64,000 nucleotides of DNA from Bacteroidota bacterium. GTDB lineage: Bacteria; Bacteroidota; Bacteroidia; Bacteroidales; JAHJDW01. The stretch covers positions 4,678 to 68,677 of the forward strand of contig JAZDMK010000006.1 of the NCBI GenBank assembly GCA_043800975.1. Reading direction: 5' to 3'. Position numbers and translations under genes: made by a program. Numbering within the stretch: position 1 is the first letter of the stretch; the number at the start of each line of letters is the position of its first letter. The notes beneath the pieces were generated by a model that had not been told where the DNA came from, did no database searches, and saw nothing but the letters and a program-made list of their open reading frames with translations. Positions 31,234 through 35,721 of the stretch are shown here, one piece after another.

Positions 31234-31334
31234 TCTTGTTATTTACTCTAGTTCTATTTAAAAGCAGCTAACCTACAGTATTTACAAATTTATACATTAT
31301 TATTAATCTCACCAAGAAAAATGAAATAAGTGCT

Positions 31335-31360
31335 CCCTTTCCATATTCATAGGGAAAGGG
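31335..31360. repeat. CCCTTTCC-N10-GGAAAGGG hairpin (variant of the island hairpin family)
   Basis: Read directly; followed by TCGGGGATAGGG. Confidence 0.6.
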
Positions 31361-31496
31361 TCGGGGATAGGGTAAGTACCGCTAAGCTCCAAAAAAATTA
31401 AGTAAAAATTCTTATGTTTCTGATATACTAAAACAAAAATCTCCTCGTTTTTATTTCATAAAACAACAAATTGTTTAACTATTAAAACCTACTGCC

Positions 31497-32243
31497 ATGA
31501 ACACATTCATTGAAACAGGTCACGCTAAAAACGTAGCAAACTTTGAGGACCTCATCTCGTTCTGCTCCGGTTATGGCGTCGCCTACAACCCTTCCCGCAA
31601 TGCCCTGAAAATACCGGCAATGCAAACCCTGCTTACTTCTTCCCGCACTGCCCTCCAAACGGCAAAGGCTGCAAAAACTGCGTATGACAACGCTACCAAC
31701 AACCGTGAAACTGCATTCCTGGGTTTCCGAAAGCTCGCAACACGTATCATAAACGCCCTCGATTCCACAGAAGCATCAAGGCTTACCGTGAACGATGCAA
31801 AATCAATCAATCGTAAAATTCAGGTTAAGCGAGCAAAGAAAATTGAAGAGGTTGTTCCGGTAACGCCCGAAAACCCTACCGCTTCAGCCGAAATACACCA
31901 CATCTCTGTATCGCAGCAAAGCTACGATTCCCAAATCGATCATCTCGCAAAGTTGGTTGTAATACTCACTGCAGAACCCTTGTACAATCCCAACGAAGCC
32001 GATCTGAAACTGACTGCGCTGAACACATACCTCACAAACTTGCGCACGCTGAACACCGCTGTAATCAATACGGCCACTCCTTTCAGCAATGCAATCATCT
32101 CCCGCGATACCCTGCTGTATATGTCCGAAACGGGTCTGGTTGATATTGCTAAAGCAGTTAAAAAATATGTAAAGTCAGTATTTTTCGCAACCAGTCCCCA
32201 ATACAAACAAATCAGCAAAATCCAGTTCCGCCACGTAAAATAA
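31497..32243 (+). CDS. hypothetical helical protein with internal duplication
   Basis: 248 aa; residues 30-74 and 163-207 align with 16/45 identities (YNP..LK..A..T.LT..RT..); GC-rich; followed by a terminator. Confidence 0.65.
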   Translation: MNTFIETGHAKNVANFEDLISFCSGYGVAYNPSRNALKIPAMQTLLTSSRTALQTAKAAKTAYDNATNNRETAFLGFRKLATRIINALDSTEASRLTVNDAKSINRKIQVKRAKKIEEVVPVTPENPTASAEIHHISVSQQSYDSQIDHLAKLVVILTAEPLYNPNEADLKLTALNTYLTNLRTLNTAVINTATPFSNAIISRDTLLYMSETGLVDIAKAVKKYVKSVFFATSPQYKQISKIQFRHVK

Positions 32244-32280
32244 CCCCGCACTTCCTGTGACTCGGTTTATATATATGAAT

Positions 32281-32315
32281 CCCTGTATGCCGCAACATAC
32301 AGGGATTTCCTTTTA
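32281..32315 (+). terminator. intrinsic terminator
   Basis: CCCTGTATG-CCGCAA-CATACAGGG, then ATTTCCTTTT. Confidence 0.65.
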
Positions 32316-32318
32316 ATT

Positions 32319-32547
32319 CCCCTTCTGGATAGAAGGGGTGGACTGCGTAGCAGGACGGGGTAGTCGAAATACTCAATTTACGGTCAATCATCAAAAGAAC
32401 TTTTAACGGGTGGACTGCGTAGCAGGACGGGGTAGTCGAAATACTCAATATACGGACAATCATCAAAAGAAGCATTAACAGATGGACTCGAACTGAGCAG
32501 TTGAATCCGTCGCGAACGCATCAAAAGAATTAGTGATAGGTTTATTG
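32319..32547 (+). repeat. repeat-module cluster copy 2, including a 72-bp tandem duplication
   Basis: Hairpin CCCCTTCTGGATAGAAGGGG 32319-32338; near-identical 72-bp units start at 32339 and 32411; a diverged third unit from 32483 carries the GAATCCGTCGCGAACGCATC module. Confidence 0.85.
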
Positions 32548-32554
32548 AAATACA

Positions 32555-32562
32555 TAAATTTG
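32555..32562 (+). promoter_or_regulatory. candidate -7 promoter box (TAnnTTTG)
   Basis: TAAATTTG lies 23 nt upstream of ATG 32585. Confidence 0.4.
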
Positions 32563-32584
32563 CATATTCTCATCAATACACCCA

Positions 32585-33094
32585 ATGAAGTATTATAGCA
32601 TTTCTACAAAGGATAGTGCAATAGAAGCTGAAACTTTCTTCATTCACTCAACAATTCTCTATAAAAATTATACGCCTGCAATACCCTTTAATCCTGAGTT
32701 AAAAGAGCGTGCAAAAGAACTTCGTAAAGCAGGAAATTTAGCTGAGGTTATTTTCTGGAAGCAGGTTCATAGAAAAAATTTCTGGGGAATAGACTTTGAT
32801 CGTCAAAAGGTGATAGGTAATTATATTGTTGATTTTTTTGTTAAAAGTTTAAGCCTTGTAATTGAGATTGACGGACGCAGTCATAATCAAAAAGAAGTAC
32901 AAGACAGGATCAGGCAGGATTATCTGGAATCAATAGGGTTATATGTATACAGAATTAAAGATGCCGACATACGAAATGATTTGAATTCAGTGATTGAAGA
33001 ATTGGAGCGATTTATACTTCATCGTTATGCAACACCCCGCCCTATCGGGCACCCCTCTGCCAGAGGGGATTTTAAAAATTCCCCTTCTGGATAG
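32585..33094 (+). CDS. DUF559 (Vsr-like) endonuclease-domain protein
   Basis: ..AEVIFWKQV....FDRQKVIGNYIVDFF....VIEIDGRSH......D..R...L...G..V.R; C-terminal tail HPSARGDFKNSPSG is encoded by palindromic repeats. Confidence 0.8.
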   Translation: MKYYSISTKDSAIEAETFFIHSTILYKNYTPAIPFNPELKERAKELRKAGNLAEVIFWKQVHRKNFWGIDFDRQKVIGNYIVDFFVKSLSLVIEIDGRSHNQKEVQDRIRQDYLESIGLYVYRIKDADIRNDLNSVIEELERFILHRYATPRPIGHPSARGDFKNSPSG

Positions 33095-33297
33095 AAGGGG
33101 TACTCCGCTTGCGGAGGGGGGTAGTCGAAATACTGGTTTACAAGCAATCAACCAAAGAAGTTTATAGGCACCTGCCGCAATTCCCCTTCGAGATCGAAGG
33201 GGTGGCACGAAGTGACGGGGTAGTTGAAAATACTAAATTTACAGCCATTCATCCAATGACGCTTTAACGTGTGGACTGCGCAGCAGGACGGGGTTAT
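33052..33297 (+). repeat. repeat-module cluster copy 3
   Basis: CCCCTCTG-C-CAGAGGGG 33052-68; CCCCTTCTGGATAGAAGGGG 33081-100; CTCCGC-TT-GCGGAG 33103-16; CCCCTTCGAGATCGAAGGGG 33183-202; TGGACTGCGCAGCAGGACGGGG 33271-92. Confidence 0.85.
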
Positions 33298-33347
33298 TAG
33301 TCTTTATTGAGAAAGGACTTTAGTCCTGATAGTGAAAAATGAACTCC

Positions 33348-33685
33348 AAAAGGAATTCTACCACCTTCAAAAAGAAAACTACCACCTGTAAAAAGAATTC
33401 TCCTTCCTGAAAAAAGAATAAGAGCACCTTCAAAAAGAAAAAGAGAAACGCAAAAAAGAATTATTCAACCTGTAAAAAGAAAACCCGCATCTGCAAAAAG
33501 AATTCTCCCACCTGTAAAAAGAAATCTTGCACCTGCAAATTGATTTTTTTTCTGATTCTTCAGGAAAACTCCTTCCTGCATAAAGAAATCCCGAACCTGT
33601 AAAAAGAATTCTTCTACCTGCAAAAAGAATTATTCCGCCTGTAAAAAGAATTCTTGCACCTGTAGCAAAAATATCTGTGTCTAAT
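33348..33685 (+). repeat. array of about 16 direct repeats with an exact 21-bp period
   Basis: A-tract starts at 33348, 33369, 33390, 33411, 33432, 33453, 33474, 33495, 33516, 33537, (33559), 33580, 33601, 33622, 33643, 33664; consensus AAAAAGAATTCTnnCACCTGY; no ORF of 60 aa or more in the track. Confidence 0.9.
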
Positions 33686-33710
33686 CTGTGTATATCTGTA
33701 TCATCTGTGG
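33673..33710 (+). repeat. four ATCTGTG(T/G) boxes spaced 9-11 bp
   Basis: Boxes start at 33673, 33684, 33694 and 33703. Confidence 0.8.
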
Positions 33711-33868
33711 TGAAAATAAGATCGCAGATTATGATAGCATAACACCAATAAGGTTTTCAGCCAAATGAAATCCGTCTATCCATATCCTGCATTAGATAAC
33801 AAACCCCCAAAATAAATGTATAAGCTTCTTCAGGTAACAATCACTTCCCTGTCCGCTGGTCAGGCGGG

Positions 33869-33983
33869 GGTCTTCCGTCTCCGGTCTTCCGTCCCTTTTA
33901 TATTTACAATTAACAAAACACTGAAAGGCGCTTGCCTGTGTGCTGGACTTCCATTTCCGTCTTCGGTCTCCGGTCTTCCGACC
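33869..33983 (+). repeat. GGTCTTCCG-type repeat element (half copy 33869-33895, full copy 33946-33983)
   Basis: GGACTTCCATTTCCGTCTTCGGTCTCCGGTCTTCCGACC; homologous to the reverse complement of 51877-51915. Confidence 0.75.
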
Positions 33984-34056
33984 AAAAAAACCATACCCTG
34001 TTTTGTATAATATTAAAAACATCTTCCTAAATTCGCATCAAACAAAACCAACGATT

Positions 34057-35721
34057 ATGACCCGACATGCAATTCTTTCACTGTTCGTAGTGGCTGTTGT
34101 TATTTTCTCAGCAGGCTGCGGCGGATCTGGTAAAAAAACCGATCAGAAAAACGATTCCACTAAAACCGACAGCGGTATGCAGAAAAAACTGGCGCAGTTC
34201 GCCACCTTCAAACTGACCACCGACATGAGCAAACTGTCGGACAAAGAAAAACAAATGATTCCGCTGCTGATTGATGCAGCCATGATCATGGACGATCTTT
34301 ACTGGATGCAGACTTATGGAAACAAAGATGAGTTTCTGGCAACGATTAAAGATGAAGATGCAAAGAAGTTTGCCAACATAAATTACGGCCCCTGGGAGCG
34401 CCTGAACGACAACCAACCTTTTCTGGAAGGTGCAAAAGTAAAAACACCGGGTGTAAATTTTTATCCGGCGGATATAACGAAAGAAGAATTTGAAAAGCTT
34501 GCTGATAAAGATAAAAAGAGTCAGTATACCGTTATTGTTCGAAATCCAGATAAGAGCCTGAAAGTGGTTTGGTATCATGAATACTACAAGGACAAACTTT
34601 CGAAAGCTTCTGATCTGATTAAACAAGCTGCTGCATTGTGCGAAGATGCCGGACTGAAAAAGTATCTGGAACTGCGTGCCGATGCATTGATGACCAGCAA
34701 TTACAAGCCCAGCGATATGGCATGGATGGATATGAAGACCAACAAAATTGATTTCATCTGCGGCCCGATCGAGAATTATGAAGACGGTTTGTTTGGTTAC
34801 AAATCGGCATTCGAAGGATTCGTTTTGGTGAAGGATATGGAATGGAGCAACAAGCTTGGAAAATTCACGGGCATGCTTCCGATTCTGCAAAAGAAATTAC
34901 CGGTTGAAGATAAATACAAAAAGGAAGTTCCTGCAGCAGGCTCTGATCTTGGCGTGTATGATGCCATCTACTATGCCGGTGATTGCAATGCGGGAAGTAA
35001 AACCATTGCTATCAATCTGCCAAACGACGAAGATGTTCAGCTGAAGAAAGGTTCACGCCGCCTGCAACTGAAGAATTCGATGAAAGCAAAATTCGACAAC
35101 ATTCTGATGCCGATTGCGAAAACACTGATGGATCCTTCACAGATGAAGAACGTGAAGTTTGATGCTTTCTTCACCAATGTAATGTTTCACGAAGTGGGAC
35201 ATGGTCTTGGAATTAAGAAAACAGTCAACGGAAAAGGCTTTGTACGCGATGCGCTGAAAGATCTGTATTCAGGAATCGAAGAAGCGAAAGCGGATATTCT
35301 CGGTTTGTTTATGGCTACCACGTTGATTGAAATGAAAGAAATCACAAACATAACTGCTGAAGACTGCTATGTTACTTTTGTTGCAGGTATCTTCCGTTCC
35401 GTTCGCTTTGGTGCAGCCAGTGCGCATGGTAAAGCCAATATGATGTGCTTTAATTTCTTTGAAGATAACAAGGCATTTACTGTAAACAACGACGGAACTT
35501 ACAAAGTAGACTTTGTGAAAGTGAAGGAAGTAGTGAACCTGTGGGCTGCTAAAATCATTACCTGGCAGGGTAATGGTGACTATGACGGACTGAAAGCTTA
35601 TTTTGAAAAGAACAGCAACATACGTCCGGCTTTGCAGAAAGAACTGGATCGCCTGAAAACTGCTAATATCCCTGTGGATATTATTTTCGATCAGGGAAAA
35701 CAAACGTTAGGGTTGAAGTAA
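34057..35721 (+). CDS. DPP III-like (M49-like) zinc metallopeptidase lipoprotein, HEXXH variant
   Basis: Lipobox VVIFSAGC; FHEVGHGLG plus EEAKADILG second zinc motif; ORF-track start 33940 runs over the repeat element and was trimmed to ATG 34057. Confidence 0.7.
   Translation: MTRHAILSLFVVAVVIFSAGCGGSGKKTDQKNDSTKTDSGMQKKLAQFATFKLTTDMSKLSDKEKQMIPLLIDAAMIMDDLYWMQTYGNKDEFLATIKDEDAKKFANINYGPWERLNDNQPFLEGAKVKTPGVNFYPADITKEEFEKLADKDKKSQYTVIVRNPDKSLKVVWYHEYYKDKLSKASDLIKQAAALCEDAGLKKYLELRADALMTSNYKPSDMAWMDMKTNKIDFICGPIENYEDGLFGYKSAFEGFVLVKDMEWSNKLGKFTGMLPILQKKLPVEDKYKKEVPAAGSDLGVYDAIYYAGDCNAGSKTIAINLPNDEDVQLKKGSRRLQLKNSMKAKFDNILMPIAKTLMDPSQMKNVKFDAFFTNVMFHEVGHGLGIKKTVNGKGFVRDALKDLYSGIEEAKADILGLFMATTLIEMKEITNITAEDCYVTFVAGIFRSVRFGAASAHGKANMMCFNFFEDNKAFTVNNDGTYKVDFVKVKEVVNLWAAKIITWQGNGDYDGLKAYFEKNSNIRPALQKELDRLKTANIPVDIIFDQGKQTLGLK

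What the first reader, a model, noticed from the sequence alone, without database searches (positions are those of the whole stretch)
33348..33685. Sixteen exactly phased 21-bp direct repeats (A-tract + AGAATTCT + CACCTG) in non-coding DNA: iteron-like, centromere-like or intrinsically curved
The A5-6 tract starts fall at 33348, 33369, 33390, 33411, 33432, 33453, 33474, 33495, 33516 and 33537. After one AT-rich interruption (AAATTGATTTTTTTTCTGATTCTTC) that shifts the phase by 1 nt, they resume at 33580, 33601, 33622, 33643 and 33664. The period is exactly 21 bp, which is two helical turns, so every A-tract lies on the same DNA face. The consensus is AAAAAGAATTCTnnCACCTGY. Five units contain GAATTC inside the palindrome AGAATTCT. 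In the first nine units GAATTCT-type and GAAAAC-type units largely alternate, which hints at a 42-bp higher-order repeat. Stops occur in frame (for example TGA at 33408-33410), and the ORF track has nothing of 60 aa or more here. Arrays of 17-22-bp phased direct repeats next to an AT-rich patch are the classic architecture of iteron replication origins and ParR-type centromeres. No rep or par gene is adjacent. It could instead be a protein-coating or strongly bent regulatory scaffold upstream of the DPP III-like gene.
Basis: seen in the sequence. Interest (0 to 1): 0.7.

Follow-up and report, generated by a model that had tools for sequence, protein, structure and literature searches.

The report
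Repeat array partnered with orphan gene
The 21-bp repeat array is real and non-coding, and it is the constant downstream partner of a large, unannotated Bacteroidota protein family, so it points to an undescribed protein-plus-repeat module and not to a replication origin or a control region for the neighbouring peptidase gene.

Summary
The array (33348-33665) is real. It has 13 clear 21-bp units in two blocks, 9 and 4, separated by a 43-bp AT-rich break. It is unique in the window and open in no frame.

It does not belong to the downstream M49 peptidase gene. It belongs to an orphan gene, here called p248 (31497-32243, 248 aa), which has no Pfam, NCBIfam, PHROG or PADLOC match. The p248 family has more than 4,000 Bacteroidota-type members.

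In 12 of 14 independent p248 loci, a tandem array with a period of exactly 21 bp begins just after the gene's terminator. The unit sequence differs completely between loci. In the window, a roughly 1-kb insertion (repeat elements plus a DUF559 gene) separates gene and array. A 97%-identical relative lacks that insertion.

The array evolves 2.4 times more slowly than the gene's third codon positions, so it is under selection. In 7-8 loci, but not in the window, a two-helix hairpin with strong covariation follows the array.

p248 is basic and all-helical with no known fold. It is absent from the plasmid and phage collections.

Best reading: a multi-site binding platform for p248. DNA is slightly favoured over RNA, and this is unresolved. 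The origin, centromere, coding and peptidase-promoter readings are rejected.

The parts
31497..32243 (+). p248: orphan 248-aa gene, the conserved partner of the array
   Evidence: No hit in Pfam, NCBIfam, PHROGs or PADLOC. 4,122 homologues, all named 'hypothetical' or unnamed. 2,919 clusters at 50% identity, all 240-270 aa in the top 150. AlphaFold2 pLDDT 86: two helical halves joined by a disordered linker. No fold match. Family median pI 9.5 and net charge +9.
32278..32314 (+). Intrinsic-terminator hairpin of p248 (12-bp stem AATCCCTGTATG/CATACAGGGATT, then TCCTTTT)
   Evidence: Read from the sequence. Identical in the 97% relative L150. Comparable hairpins with T runs follow the gene in L137, L140, L141, L149, L153, L155, L156 and L062.
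32316..33295 (+). Insertion that separates p248 from its array: hairpin repeats, 72-bp repeats and a DUF559 endonuclease-like gene (32585-33094)
   Evidence: Absent in L150, where the array starts about 150 bp after the stop codon. Repeat families D2-D7. DUF559 Pfam hit, E = 1.5e-26.
33348..33536 (+). Array, proximal block: nine 21-bp units (AAAAAGAA box, variable 9 bp, CCTGy)
   Evidence: Orthologous units are 93% identical to L150 with no indels.
33537..33579 (+). 43-bp AT-rich break containing a T8 run; shifts the register by +1
   Evidence: Conserved in L150, including the length of the T8 run.
33580..33663 (+). Array, distal block: four 21-bp units, followed by a degenerate unit at 33664-33684
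33686..33737 (+). Weak candidate for the distal hairpin that other loci carry (4-bp and 6-bp stems, 4x4 internal loop, 24-nt loop). The loop sequences differ, and this is probably a chance match
   Evidence: Geometry-only scan. Found neither by the motif scan nor by covariance model R1 at E <= 10.

Best explanation
The array is the cis partner of a conserved, unannotated module. The module runs: p248 gene, intrinsic terminator, tandem array with an exact 21-bp period, and in many lineages a two-helix hairpin. In the window a 1-kb insertion has pushed gene and array apart.

Proposed mechanism, which is inferred and not shown: each unit offers one short box (here CCTGyAAAAAGAA) plus a tolerant 9-bp spacer. 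The basic, all-helical p248 protein binds one box per unit. Because 21 bp is two turns of B-DNA, all sites lie on one face of the duplex. Five to eighteen protomers could then line up side by side as a one-sided nucleoprotein filament.

The box sequence drifts between lineages and between paralogues in one genome, so each protein would keep its own array. What the complex then does (autoregulation, a titration store or an addiction/defence switch) is unknown.
For: Shown:
- Gene-array linkage. A 21-bp-period array lies downstream of p248 in 12 of 14 independent loci: the window, L150, L120, L062, L137, L140, L141, L145, L147, L149, L153, and the IMG/VR contigs L151 and L152. L150 is the same locus as the window in a 97% relative, so these count as one locus. 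In L156 the array is upstream. L155 is cut off upstream. The window has only one such array in 64 kb.
- Constant period. The period is 21 in every array, while the unit sequence turns over completely.
- Purifying selection. The array is 93.3% identical over 252 ungapped nt, against 83.9% at the gene's third codon positions. My tally of that call's per-position counts gives the box about 3.5% divergence and the spacer about 11%.
- Conservation is block-like, not 3-periodic.
- p248 is consistently basic.
- Two paralogues in one metagenome-assembled genome carry different units (L147 against L153).
- Arrays next to identical proteins from different samples are identical.

Inferred: that p248 is the binder, and that the bound form is duplex DNA.
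Against: - p248 has no recognisable DNA-binding fold.
- The same CTGCAAAAAGAA box is kept by p248 proteins that are only 41-61% identical (L120, L062, L141). Proteins that are 56-63% identical have other boxes. Box and protein therefore do not obviously co-vary.
- Arrays with the same box exist in Flavobacterium, Pedobacter and Epilithonimonas with no p248 gene in the retrieved DNA.
- Units are not enriched for palindromes (combined p = 0.25).
- Predicted curvature is not conserved.
- A covarying single-strand hairpin follows the array on the gene's strand. In several loci a T run or terminator follows that hairpin. This argues that the region is transcribed, which favours the RNA rival.
Confidence: 0.4

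Rival explanations
1. Repeat RNA partner. The array is transcribed on the gene's strand, by read-through of the p248 terminator or from an unrecognised promoter. The distal hairpin and its terminator would form the 3' end. p248 would bind, or cut, one 21-nt repeat per protomer. The module would then work like a type III toxin-antitoxin or abortive-infection pair, or like a protein sponge.
For: - A two-helix hairpin (P1, internal loop ACAU/AAGA, P2) lies 7-163 nt beyond the array on the gene's strand in 7 loci. 94% of cells are paired against 56% in shuffles, and 14 of 15 pairs change on both sides. P1 was not part of the search criterion.
- Hits with exact loops occur only in p248 loci across 1.18 Mb scanned on both strands.
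- Covariance model R1 adds L062 in the right place and on the right strand.
- T runs or a terminator with compensatory changes follow the hairpin in L145, L062, L141, L151 and L137/L138.
- The module is autonomous, occurs in several copies per genome with distinct repeats, and often sits next to restriction-modification, patatin, PD-(D/E)XK or DUF559 genes.
- p248 is basic.
Against: - The array lies after a strong terminator, and no promoter was found in front of it.
- The order is the reverse of ToxIN.
- p248 has no match to any Pfam family, which includes the toxin families.
- The arrays show no folding signal on either strand (mean z about -0.4).
- The window's own array is conserved without any hairpin.
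Confidence: 0.3
2. Iteron replication origin or partition centromere of an integrated plasmid or phage.
For: Phased 21-bp direct repeats with an AT-rich patch. An array directly downstream of a protein gene resembles sopB-sopC of the F plasmid (from general knowledge).
Against: - No Rep, ParA, ParM or TubZ gene in any of the loci.
- p248 has no match in the plasmid or phage collections.
- No skew switch and no DnaA boxes nearby.
- The module sits between ordinary chromosomal genes.
Confidence: 0.05
3. Decayed or unconventional coding sequence for a heptad-repeat peptide (21 bp = 7 codons), on either strand.
For: The period is a multiple of 3. Gene callers place ORFs on some arrays (L137 106 aa minus strand, L142 51 aa minus, L147 116 aa plus, L150 94 aa minus). 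A minus-strand frame often reads x-x-R-[IF]-L-F-x.
Against: - Stops occur in all frames in the window and in L150. The +1 register shift is conserved between them.
- ORFs fall on inconsistent strands and frames.
- Conservation shows no 3-periodicity.
- Differences between the window and L150 are not concentrated at third positions of any frame. This is my tally of the per-position counts.
- A 21-bp unit free of stops is expected by chance in most frames.
Confidence: 0.05
4. Curved or protein-coated regulatory scaffold for the downstream M49 (DPP III-like) gene.
For: The A-tracts are in helical phase. The predicted end-to-end/contour ratio is 0.62, the 0.7th percentile of the window. The array lies 390 bp upstream of the gene.
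Against: A 72%-identical M49 gene has no array upstream. In other loci the array follows p248 whatever lies downstream. Curvature is absent from several family arrays.
Confidence: 0.03
5. Neutral slippage-prone minisatellite, or a binding array for an unrelated host factor that merely tends to sit next to p248.
For: Arrays with the same box occur without p248 in other Bacteroidota classes.
Against: The array diverges 2.4 times more slowly than third codon positions and has no indels. Copy number is identical across samples. Linkage to p248 holds in 12 of 14 loci, against about 1 array per 64 kb of background.
Confidence: 0.1

Closest known systems
Iteron arrays of theta-replicating plasmids (R6K, pSC101, P1, F ori2/incC)
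   Same: Tandem direct repeats of about 20 bp spaced two helical turns apart. Each has a conserved box plus a spacer, sits next to the gene of the protein presumed to bind it, and has an AT-rich patch nearby.
   Different: No Rep-type winged-helix protein. Not on plasmids or phages. No DnaA boxes or skew switch. Up to 18 units. Chromosomal, with several copies per genome.
sopB-sopC (F plasmid) and ParR-parC type centromeres
   Same: The repeat array lies immediately next to the gene of a small binding protein, and many sites would build one long nucleoprotein complex.
   Different: No partner NTPase (ParA, ParM or TubZ). No RHH or HTH fold. Units are not palindromic. No plasmid context.
Type III toxin-antitoxin systems (ToxIN, CptIN, TenpIN)
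   Same: A two-part autonomous module of one protein gene plus an adjacent tandem array of short direct repeats, with a terminator between them. Repeats are lineage-specific. The module is frequent near defence genes.
   Different: The order is reversed (gene, then array). Repeats are 21 nt, not 34-45 nt. There are 5-18 copies, not 2-6. The protein is all-helical with no ToxN/AbiQ-like match. No promoter was found for the array.
CsrB/RsmZ-type sponge RNAs
   Same: Many short, similar protein-binding motifs within 200-400 nt.
   Different: Those motifs are irregularly spaced in hairpin loops, and the RNA genes are not linked to the gene of the protein they bind. Here the spacing is exactly 21 and no hairpins are predicted in the array.
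Flavo-1 RNA motif (Rfam RF01705)
   Same: A Bacteroidota-specific motif of unknown function. It is found about 240 bp upstream of p248 in two loci.
   Different: It is a different element, it lies on the opposite strand, and the window lacks it. A transcriptome study reports that Flavo-1 hits lie sense or antisense to transcribed regions, or outside them (PMC9723704).

Membership tests
Iteron-type replication origin | Tandem 17-22-bp direct repeats in helical phase | tested here: met
   Period exactly 21 bp, 13 clear units.
Iteron-type replication origin | Adjacent gene for a Rep initiator (Rep_3 / winged-helix) | tested here: not met
   No Rep among the neighbours. The linked p248 is all-helical, has no Pfam hit and has no fold match.
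Iteron-type replication origin | Resides on a plasmid, phage or integrated replicon | tested here: not met
   tblastn with p248 finds nothing in 72,556 plasmids or 50,697 phages. Its flanks are chromosomal genes.
Iteron-type replication origin | DnaA boxes, an AT-rich unwinding element and a strand-skew switch | tested here: not met
   The nearest DnaA-like boxes are about 2-3 kb away (30304 and 35673) and are not enriched. No skew switch. An AT-rich patch exists, but inside the array.
Plasmid partition centromere (parC / sopC / parS arrays) | Partition NTPase gene (ParA, ParM or TubZ) in the same locus | tested here: not met
   None in the window neighbourhood or in any related locus.
Plasmid partition centromere (parC / sopC / parS arrays) | Centromere-binding protein with an RHH or HTH fold that binds the repeats | tested here: inconclusive
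   p248 is basic but has no recognisable fold. Binding cannot be tested with these tools.
Type III toxin-antitoxin (ToxIN-like) | Tandem direct repeats adjacent to the protein gene, separated from it by a terminator | tested here: met
   Gene, terminator hairpin and then array in most loci.
Type III toxin-antitoxin (ToxIN-like) | Array upstream of the toxin gene with its own promoter | tested here: not met
   The array is downstream of the gene in 12 of 14 loci. No promoter is evident in the 10-35 bp between terminator and array.
Type III toxin-antitoxin (ToxIN-like) | Toxin of the ToxN/AbiQ, CptN or TenpN families | tested here: not met
   No hit in Pfam or PADLOC. All-helical model.
Type III toxin-antitoxin (ToxIN-like) | Repeat RNA is made, processed to unit length and neutralises the protein | not testable with these tools
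   Needs RNA-seq and toxicity assays.
CRISPR array | Identical repeats separated by unique spacers of similar length | tested here: not met
   Units abut head to tail. The 9-bp variable part recurs among units.
Intrinsically curved DNA (phased A-tracts) | Predicted curvature well above background | tested here: met
   End-to-end/contour ratio 0.62 against a background mean of 0.89, the 0.7th percentile. The wedge angles were recalled from memory, so this is approximate.
Intrinsically curved DNA (phased A-tracts) | Curvature conserved in the homologous arrays, as expected if curvature were the function | tested here: not met
   L137 0.98, L140 0.92 and L147 0.94 are straight.
Any Rfam RNA family | Match to a curated covariance model | tested here: not met
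   Nothing at gathering score in the window except two tRNAs. Nothing relevant at E <= 1 in 31300-34100.

The most novel reading that the evidence does not exclude
p248, the 21-nt repeat array and the ACAU/AAGA hairpin form a previously unrecognised, phylum-wide ribonucleoprotein or addiction/defence module of Bacteroidota. It would be a new class of protein-plus-repeat-RNA system, analogous to type III toxin-antitoxin pairs but unrelated to them. Each protomer would measure out exactly 21 nt.
Probability: 0.3. Interest if true: 0.85.

Novelty: new variant of a known kind. Interest (0 to 1): 0.72.

Why it matters
A family of several thousand 'hypothetical' Bacteroidota proteins gains its first functional handle. 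Each gene carries, in cis, a selected tandem array with an invariant 21-bp ruler, and often a covarying hairpin.

This gives direct experiments: binding of p248 to the array as DNA or as RNA, transcript mapping, and toxicity and phage-challenge tests. It also gives a large natural data set of protein/box pairs from which a recognition code could be read.

If the RNA reading holds, it would add a new class of protein-plus-repeat-RNA module. Bacteroidota lack Hfq, ProQ and CsrA (from general knowledge), so a new RNA-protein system there would stand out. If the DNA reading holds, it would be a chromosomal one-sided filament system with no plasmid role.

It also matters for annotation. Gene callers currently place spurious ORFs on these arrays, and the arrays probably break metagenome assemblies, since many p248 contigs are only 1-3 kb long.

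Tried and rejected
- **Coding.** Six-frame translation, ORF consistency, the 3-periodicity of conservation and the codon position of substitutions gave no support.
- **Start codon in the hairpin loop.** A minus-strand ATG inside the conserved ACAT loop gives ORFs of 5-134 aa, which is not a conserved ORF.
- **RNA structure of the array.** z-scores are about 0 on both strands across 13 arrays.
- **Palindromic cores (dimer operators).** Not enriched, combined p = 0.25.
- **Conserved curvature.** Present in the window but not across the family.
- **Minus-strand sRNA sponge.** The idea was CAGGUGG motifs with a sigma-70-like promoter and a terminator. These are consensus matches at chance level, and sigma-70 rules do not fit Bacteroidota.
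- **Array of Bacteroidota -7 promoter boxes (TAnnTTTG) on the minus strand.** This fits the window-type box and one perfect box at 33666-33673. It does not fit most other arrays.
- **Fold and sequence searches for p248.** Nothing below E = 0.05. No domain fusions among the best 150 representatives.
- **Homology of the 404-aa gene next to the L083 array to p248.** hhalign probability 0.2%.
- **Extended conservation downstream.** Only one 24-nt block is shared, by L141 and L153.
- **Literature.** Searches for 21-bp repeats or type III TA in Bacteroidota returned nothing relevant.
- **The hairpin in the window.** Motif scans and covariance model R1 found none.

Full report
**1. The observation**

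The region 33348-33665 is a head-to-tail array with a period of exactly 21 bp. Tandem Repeats Finder reports 15.0 copies, 64% matches and no indels, with additional rows at periods 42 and 63.

In 21-bp register there are nine good units (33348-33536). A 43-bp AT-rich break follows (33537-33579), which moves the register by +1. Then come four good units (33580-33663) and a degenerate tail.

The consensus is AAAAAGAATTCTTCCACCTGT. Positions 1-8 and 18-19 are nearly invariant, and positions 9-17 vary. The motif occurs 9 times within 3 mismatches against 0.23 expected, always inside the array. No frame is open with a start codon.

**2. What the array belongs to**

The array lies in a 960-bp gap between a DUF559 gene (32585-33094) and an M49 peptidase lipoprotein gene (34057-35721).

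A scan of representative genomes with a two-unit pattern gave mostly chance hits. It also found genuine 21-bp arrays with the same CTGnAAAAAGAA core in other Bacteroidota. A three-unit scan of metagenomes found more.

Two of those loci, L120 and L062, carry a homologue of the window's ORF 31497-32243 ('p248') just upstream of the array, at 41% and 55% identity.

p248 has no Pfam, NCBIfam, PHROG or PADLOC match. It has 4,122 homologues, all unnamed or 'hypothetical' and all from Bacteroidota-type sources. They form 2,919 clusters at 50% identity. The best 150 are all single-domain proteins of about 205-281 aa.

**3. The linkage is general**

I fetched contigs for family members chosen without regard to repeats. 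A tandem array of period 21, with 5-18 units, starts 10-150 bp after the p248 stop codon in L137, L140, L141, L145, L147, L149 and L153, and in the IMG/VR contigs L151 and L152. It usually starts right after a hairpin plus T run.

In L156 the array is upstream of the gene. L155 is cut off upstream. Both of these genes are followed by a patatin gene.

Counting the window and L150 as one locus, because they are the same locus in close relatives, 12 of 14 independent loci have the array downstream. By contrast the whole 64-kb window holds one such array.

The unit sequence is unrelated between many loci:
- CACCTGyAAAAAGAATTCT
- TAGAATATTCCTTTTGGCACG
- CATTTATTTTCTCTGACAGTA
- CAACAGTATTTGAAAGAACTC
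- ATGATGACTGAGTATTCTCGA
- AAAGTAAATTGCGTACGTAAG

The period is always 21.

The genomic contexts are unrelated. They include hydrogenase and glycosyltransferase genes, T9SS cargo genes, type I and Eco57I/MmeI-type restriction-modification genes, and hydrolase genes.

**4. Why gene and array are 1.1 kb apart in the window**

L150 encodes a p248 that is 97% identical. Its sequence matches the window through the terminator hairpin (32278-32314) and then runs into the orthologous array about 150 bp after the stop codon.

The window instead has about 980 bp of hairpin repeats, 72-bp repeats and the DUF559 gene (32316-33295). This stretch is an insertion.

An M49 gene that is 72% identical, in another genome, has no p248 or array upstream. 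The array is therefore not an M49 control element.

**5. The array is functional and non-coding**

Between the window and L150, the gene's third codon positions are 83.9% identical (40 of 249 differ). The array is 93.3% identical over 252 nt with no indel, and the AT-rich break with its T8 run is kept. My tally of the per-position counts gives about 3.5% divergence in the box and about 11% in the spacer.

Conservation within arrays is block-like, not 3-periodic. Open frames over arrays fall on inconsistent strands and frames, and they are broken in the window and in L150.

Contigs that encode identical p248 proteins, from different samples, carry identical arrays. The arrays are therefore not hypervariable contingency loci.

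**6. Properties tested**

| Property | Result |
|---|---|
| Curvature (my own wedge model, with angles recalled from memory) | Window array at the 0.7th percentile of the window; L137, L140 and L147 are straight, so curvature is not the conserved property |
| RNA folding of the arrays | No signal on either strand |
| Palindromes in units | Not enriched |
| Rfam | No family matches |
| Origin features | No skew switch; no nearby DnaA boxes |
| p248 in plasmid and phage collections | Absent |
| p248 structure | Confident model (pLDDT 86), two helical halves (8-108, 138-240) with a disordered linker; no structural neighbour |
| p248 charge | Median pI 9.5, net charge +9 |

**7. A third component in relatives**

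A structured element lies on the gene's strand just beyond the array (7-163 nt) in L137, L141, L145, L147, L149, L151 and L153. It consists of an outer helix P1 of 4-10 bp, an internal loop ACAU opposite AAGA, an inner helix P2 of 8-9 bp, and a loop of 23-48 nt. The helix sequences differ in every locus.

I aligned the seven elements after trimming the terminal loop to 16 nt. On that alignment 94% of cells pair, against 56% in shuffles and 21-41% in slid controls. Fourteen of 15 pairs change on both sides.

P2 pairing was a search criterion, but P1 pairing was not. Hits with exact loops occur nowhere else in 1.18 Mb scanned on both strands.

A covariance model adds L062 (E = 0.05, correct place and strand) and a weak hit in L156. 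It finds nothing in the window.

T runs, or a terminator with compensatory changes, follow the element in several loci. In L137 against L138 there are no differences over 1,864 nt up to the end of the element, then 13% divergence. A minus-strand ATG inside the ACAT loop does not open a conserved ORF.

This element suggests that the strand is read as RNA. The window's array, however, is conserved without it.

**8. Interpretation**

What is shown: a conserved module of orphan gene plus a selected 21-bp array, often with the hairpin.

What is inferred: the array is a multi-site platform for the basic p248 protein.

I slightly favour duplex DNA (0.4). My reasons are that 21 bp is exactly two helical turns, that this ruler survives complete sequence turnover, and that the array sits behind a terminator with no visible promoter.

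The repeat-RNA reading (0.3) is supported by the covarying hairpin, by the terminators beyond it, by the type III TA-like layout, and by the frequent restriction-modification, patatin or nuclease neighbours.

Evidence against p248 as a specific binder: the same box is kept by proteins of 41-61% identity, and arrays with that box occur without p248 in Flavobacteriia and Sphingobacteriia.

The origin, centromere, coding, M49-scaffold and neutral-satellite readings each fail direct tests (see the membership table and the rival explanations).

**9. Novelty**

Neither the protein family, nor the array association, nor the hairpin is in Pfam, Rfam, NCBIfam, PHROGs or PADLOC. None appears in the literature I could search.

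The architecture resembles known protein-plus-repeat systems (iterons, sopC, ToxIN) but meets the defining features of none. I file it as a new variant of a known kind, with about a 0.3 chance that it is a truly new class of module.

Noticed in passing
window 32316-33295: About 980 bp of nested repeat elements surround a DUF559 endonuclease-like gene. They comprise a 25-nt hairpin AATTCCCCTTCTGGATAGAAGGGGT (3 copies), 72-bp tandem units containing GGACTGCGTAGCAGGACGGGGTAGTCGAAATACT, and 67-nt copies at 32367, 32439 and 33228. The stretch is absent from the 97% relative L150, so it is a recent insertion and looks like a REP-flanked cassette. A similar GAGCGTAGTCGAAGGGG element flanks the L083 array on both sides.
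   Followed up: partly
window 33856-33983: Direct repeats GGTCTTCCGTCTCCGGTCTTCCGTCC / GTCTTCGGTCTCCGGTCTTCCGACC lie 89 bp apart, just upstream of the M49 gene start. Function unknown.
   Followed up: no
window 33666-33709: Right after the array there is a run of ATCTGT motifs with a period of 10-11 bp. On the minus strand there is a perfect Bacteroidota-type -7 promoter box (TATTTTTG, 33666-33673) pointing into the array.
   Followed up: partly
L137 7044-7113, L141 7096-7158, L145 5020-5082, L147 5303-5366, L149 5112-5174, L151 5044-5128, L153 4336-4400, L062 749-816 (-): A new covarying two-helix element (P1, ACAU/AAGA internal loop, P2, large loop) sits just beyond the p248-linked arrays. 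It is not in Rfam and it is absent from the window.
   Followed up: yes
L147 3687-3760 (-), L153 2684-2758 (-): Rfam Flavo-1 (RF01705) matches at 49.2 and 40.7 bits (gathering score 42). They lie about 240 bp upstream of two paralogous p248 genes of one metagenome-assembled genome, on the opposite strand. They are probably dispersed repeat elements.
   Followed up: partly
L018 190-603, L119 3535-3799, L042 1837-2054, L022 5865-5976, L083 5429-5716, L126 3320-3602, L124 97-368: 21-bp arrays with the same CTGCAAAAAGAA core occur in Flavobacterium, Epilithonimonas, Pedobacter and other Bacteroidia, with no p248 gene in the retrieved DNA. Most sit 100-400 bp upstream of a same-strand gene (vWA, amylase and others). 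In L126 the array is bracketed by direct repeats of about 60 bp.
   Followed up: partly
L155 164-1993, L156 3001-4901: Two paralogous p248 genes in one metagenome-assembled genome are each followed directly by a patatin-like phospholipase gene instead of an array. In L156 a 21-bp array (2526-2765) lies upstream of p248.
   Followed up: partly
L145 1-3767, L153 1-1252, L151 256-1656: p248 modules repeatedly sit just downstream of restriction-modification genes (type I HsdS/HsdR; Eco57I/MmeI-type methylase-nucleases). In L151 they also sit next to P63C and Bro-N domain genes. This suggests residence in a defence island.
   Followed up: partly
L141 8253-8388, L153 4810-4982: A second, different 21-bp array lies further down the same long non-coding gap after p248. 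L141 and L153 also share an identical 24-nt block, CCCTTCTGTAAAAATTTAAACGCC.
   Followed up: no
L137 7114-7448 vs L138: Two strains are identical over 1,864 nt (upstream gene, p248, array, hairpin). They then diverge by 13% immediately after the hairpin. This is a sharp boundary of recombination or of constraint.
   Followed up: partly
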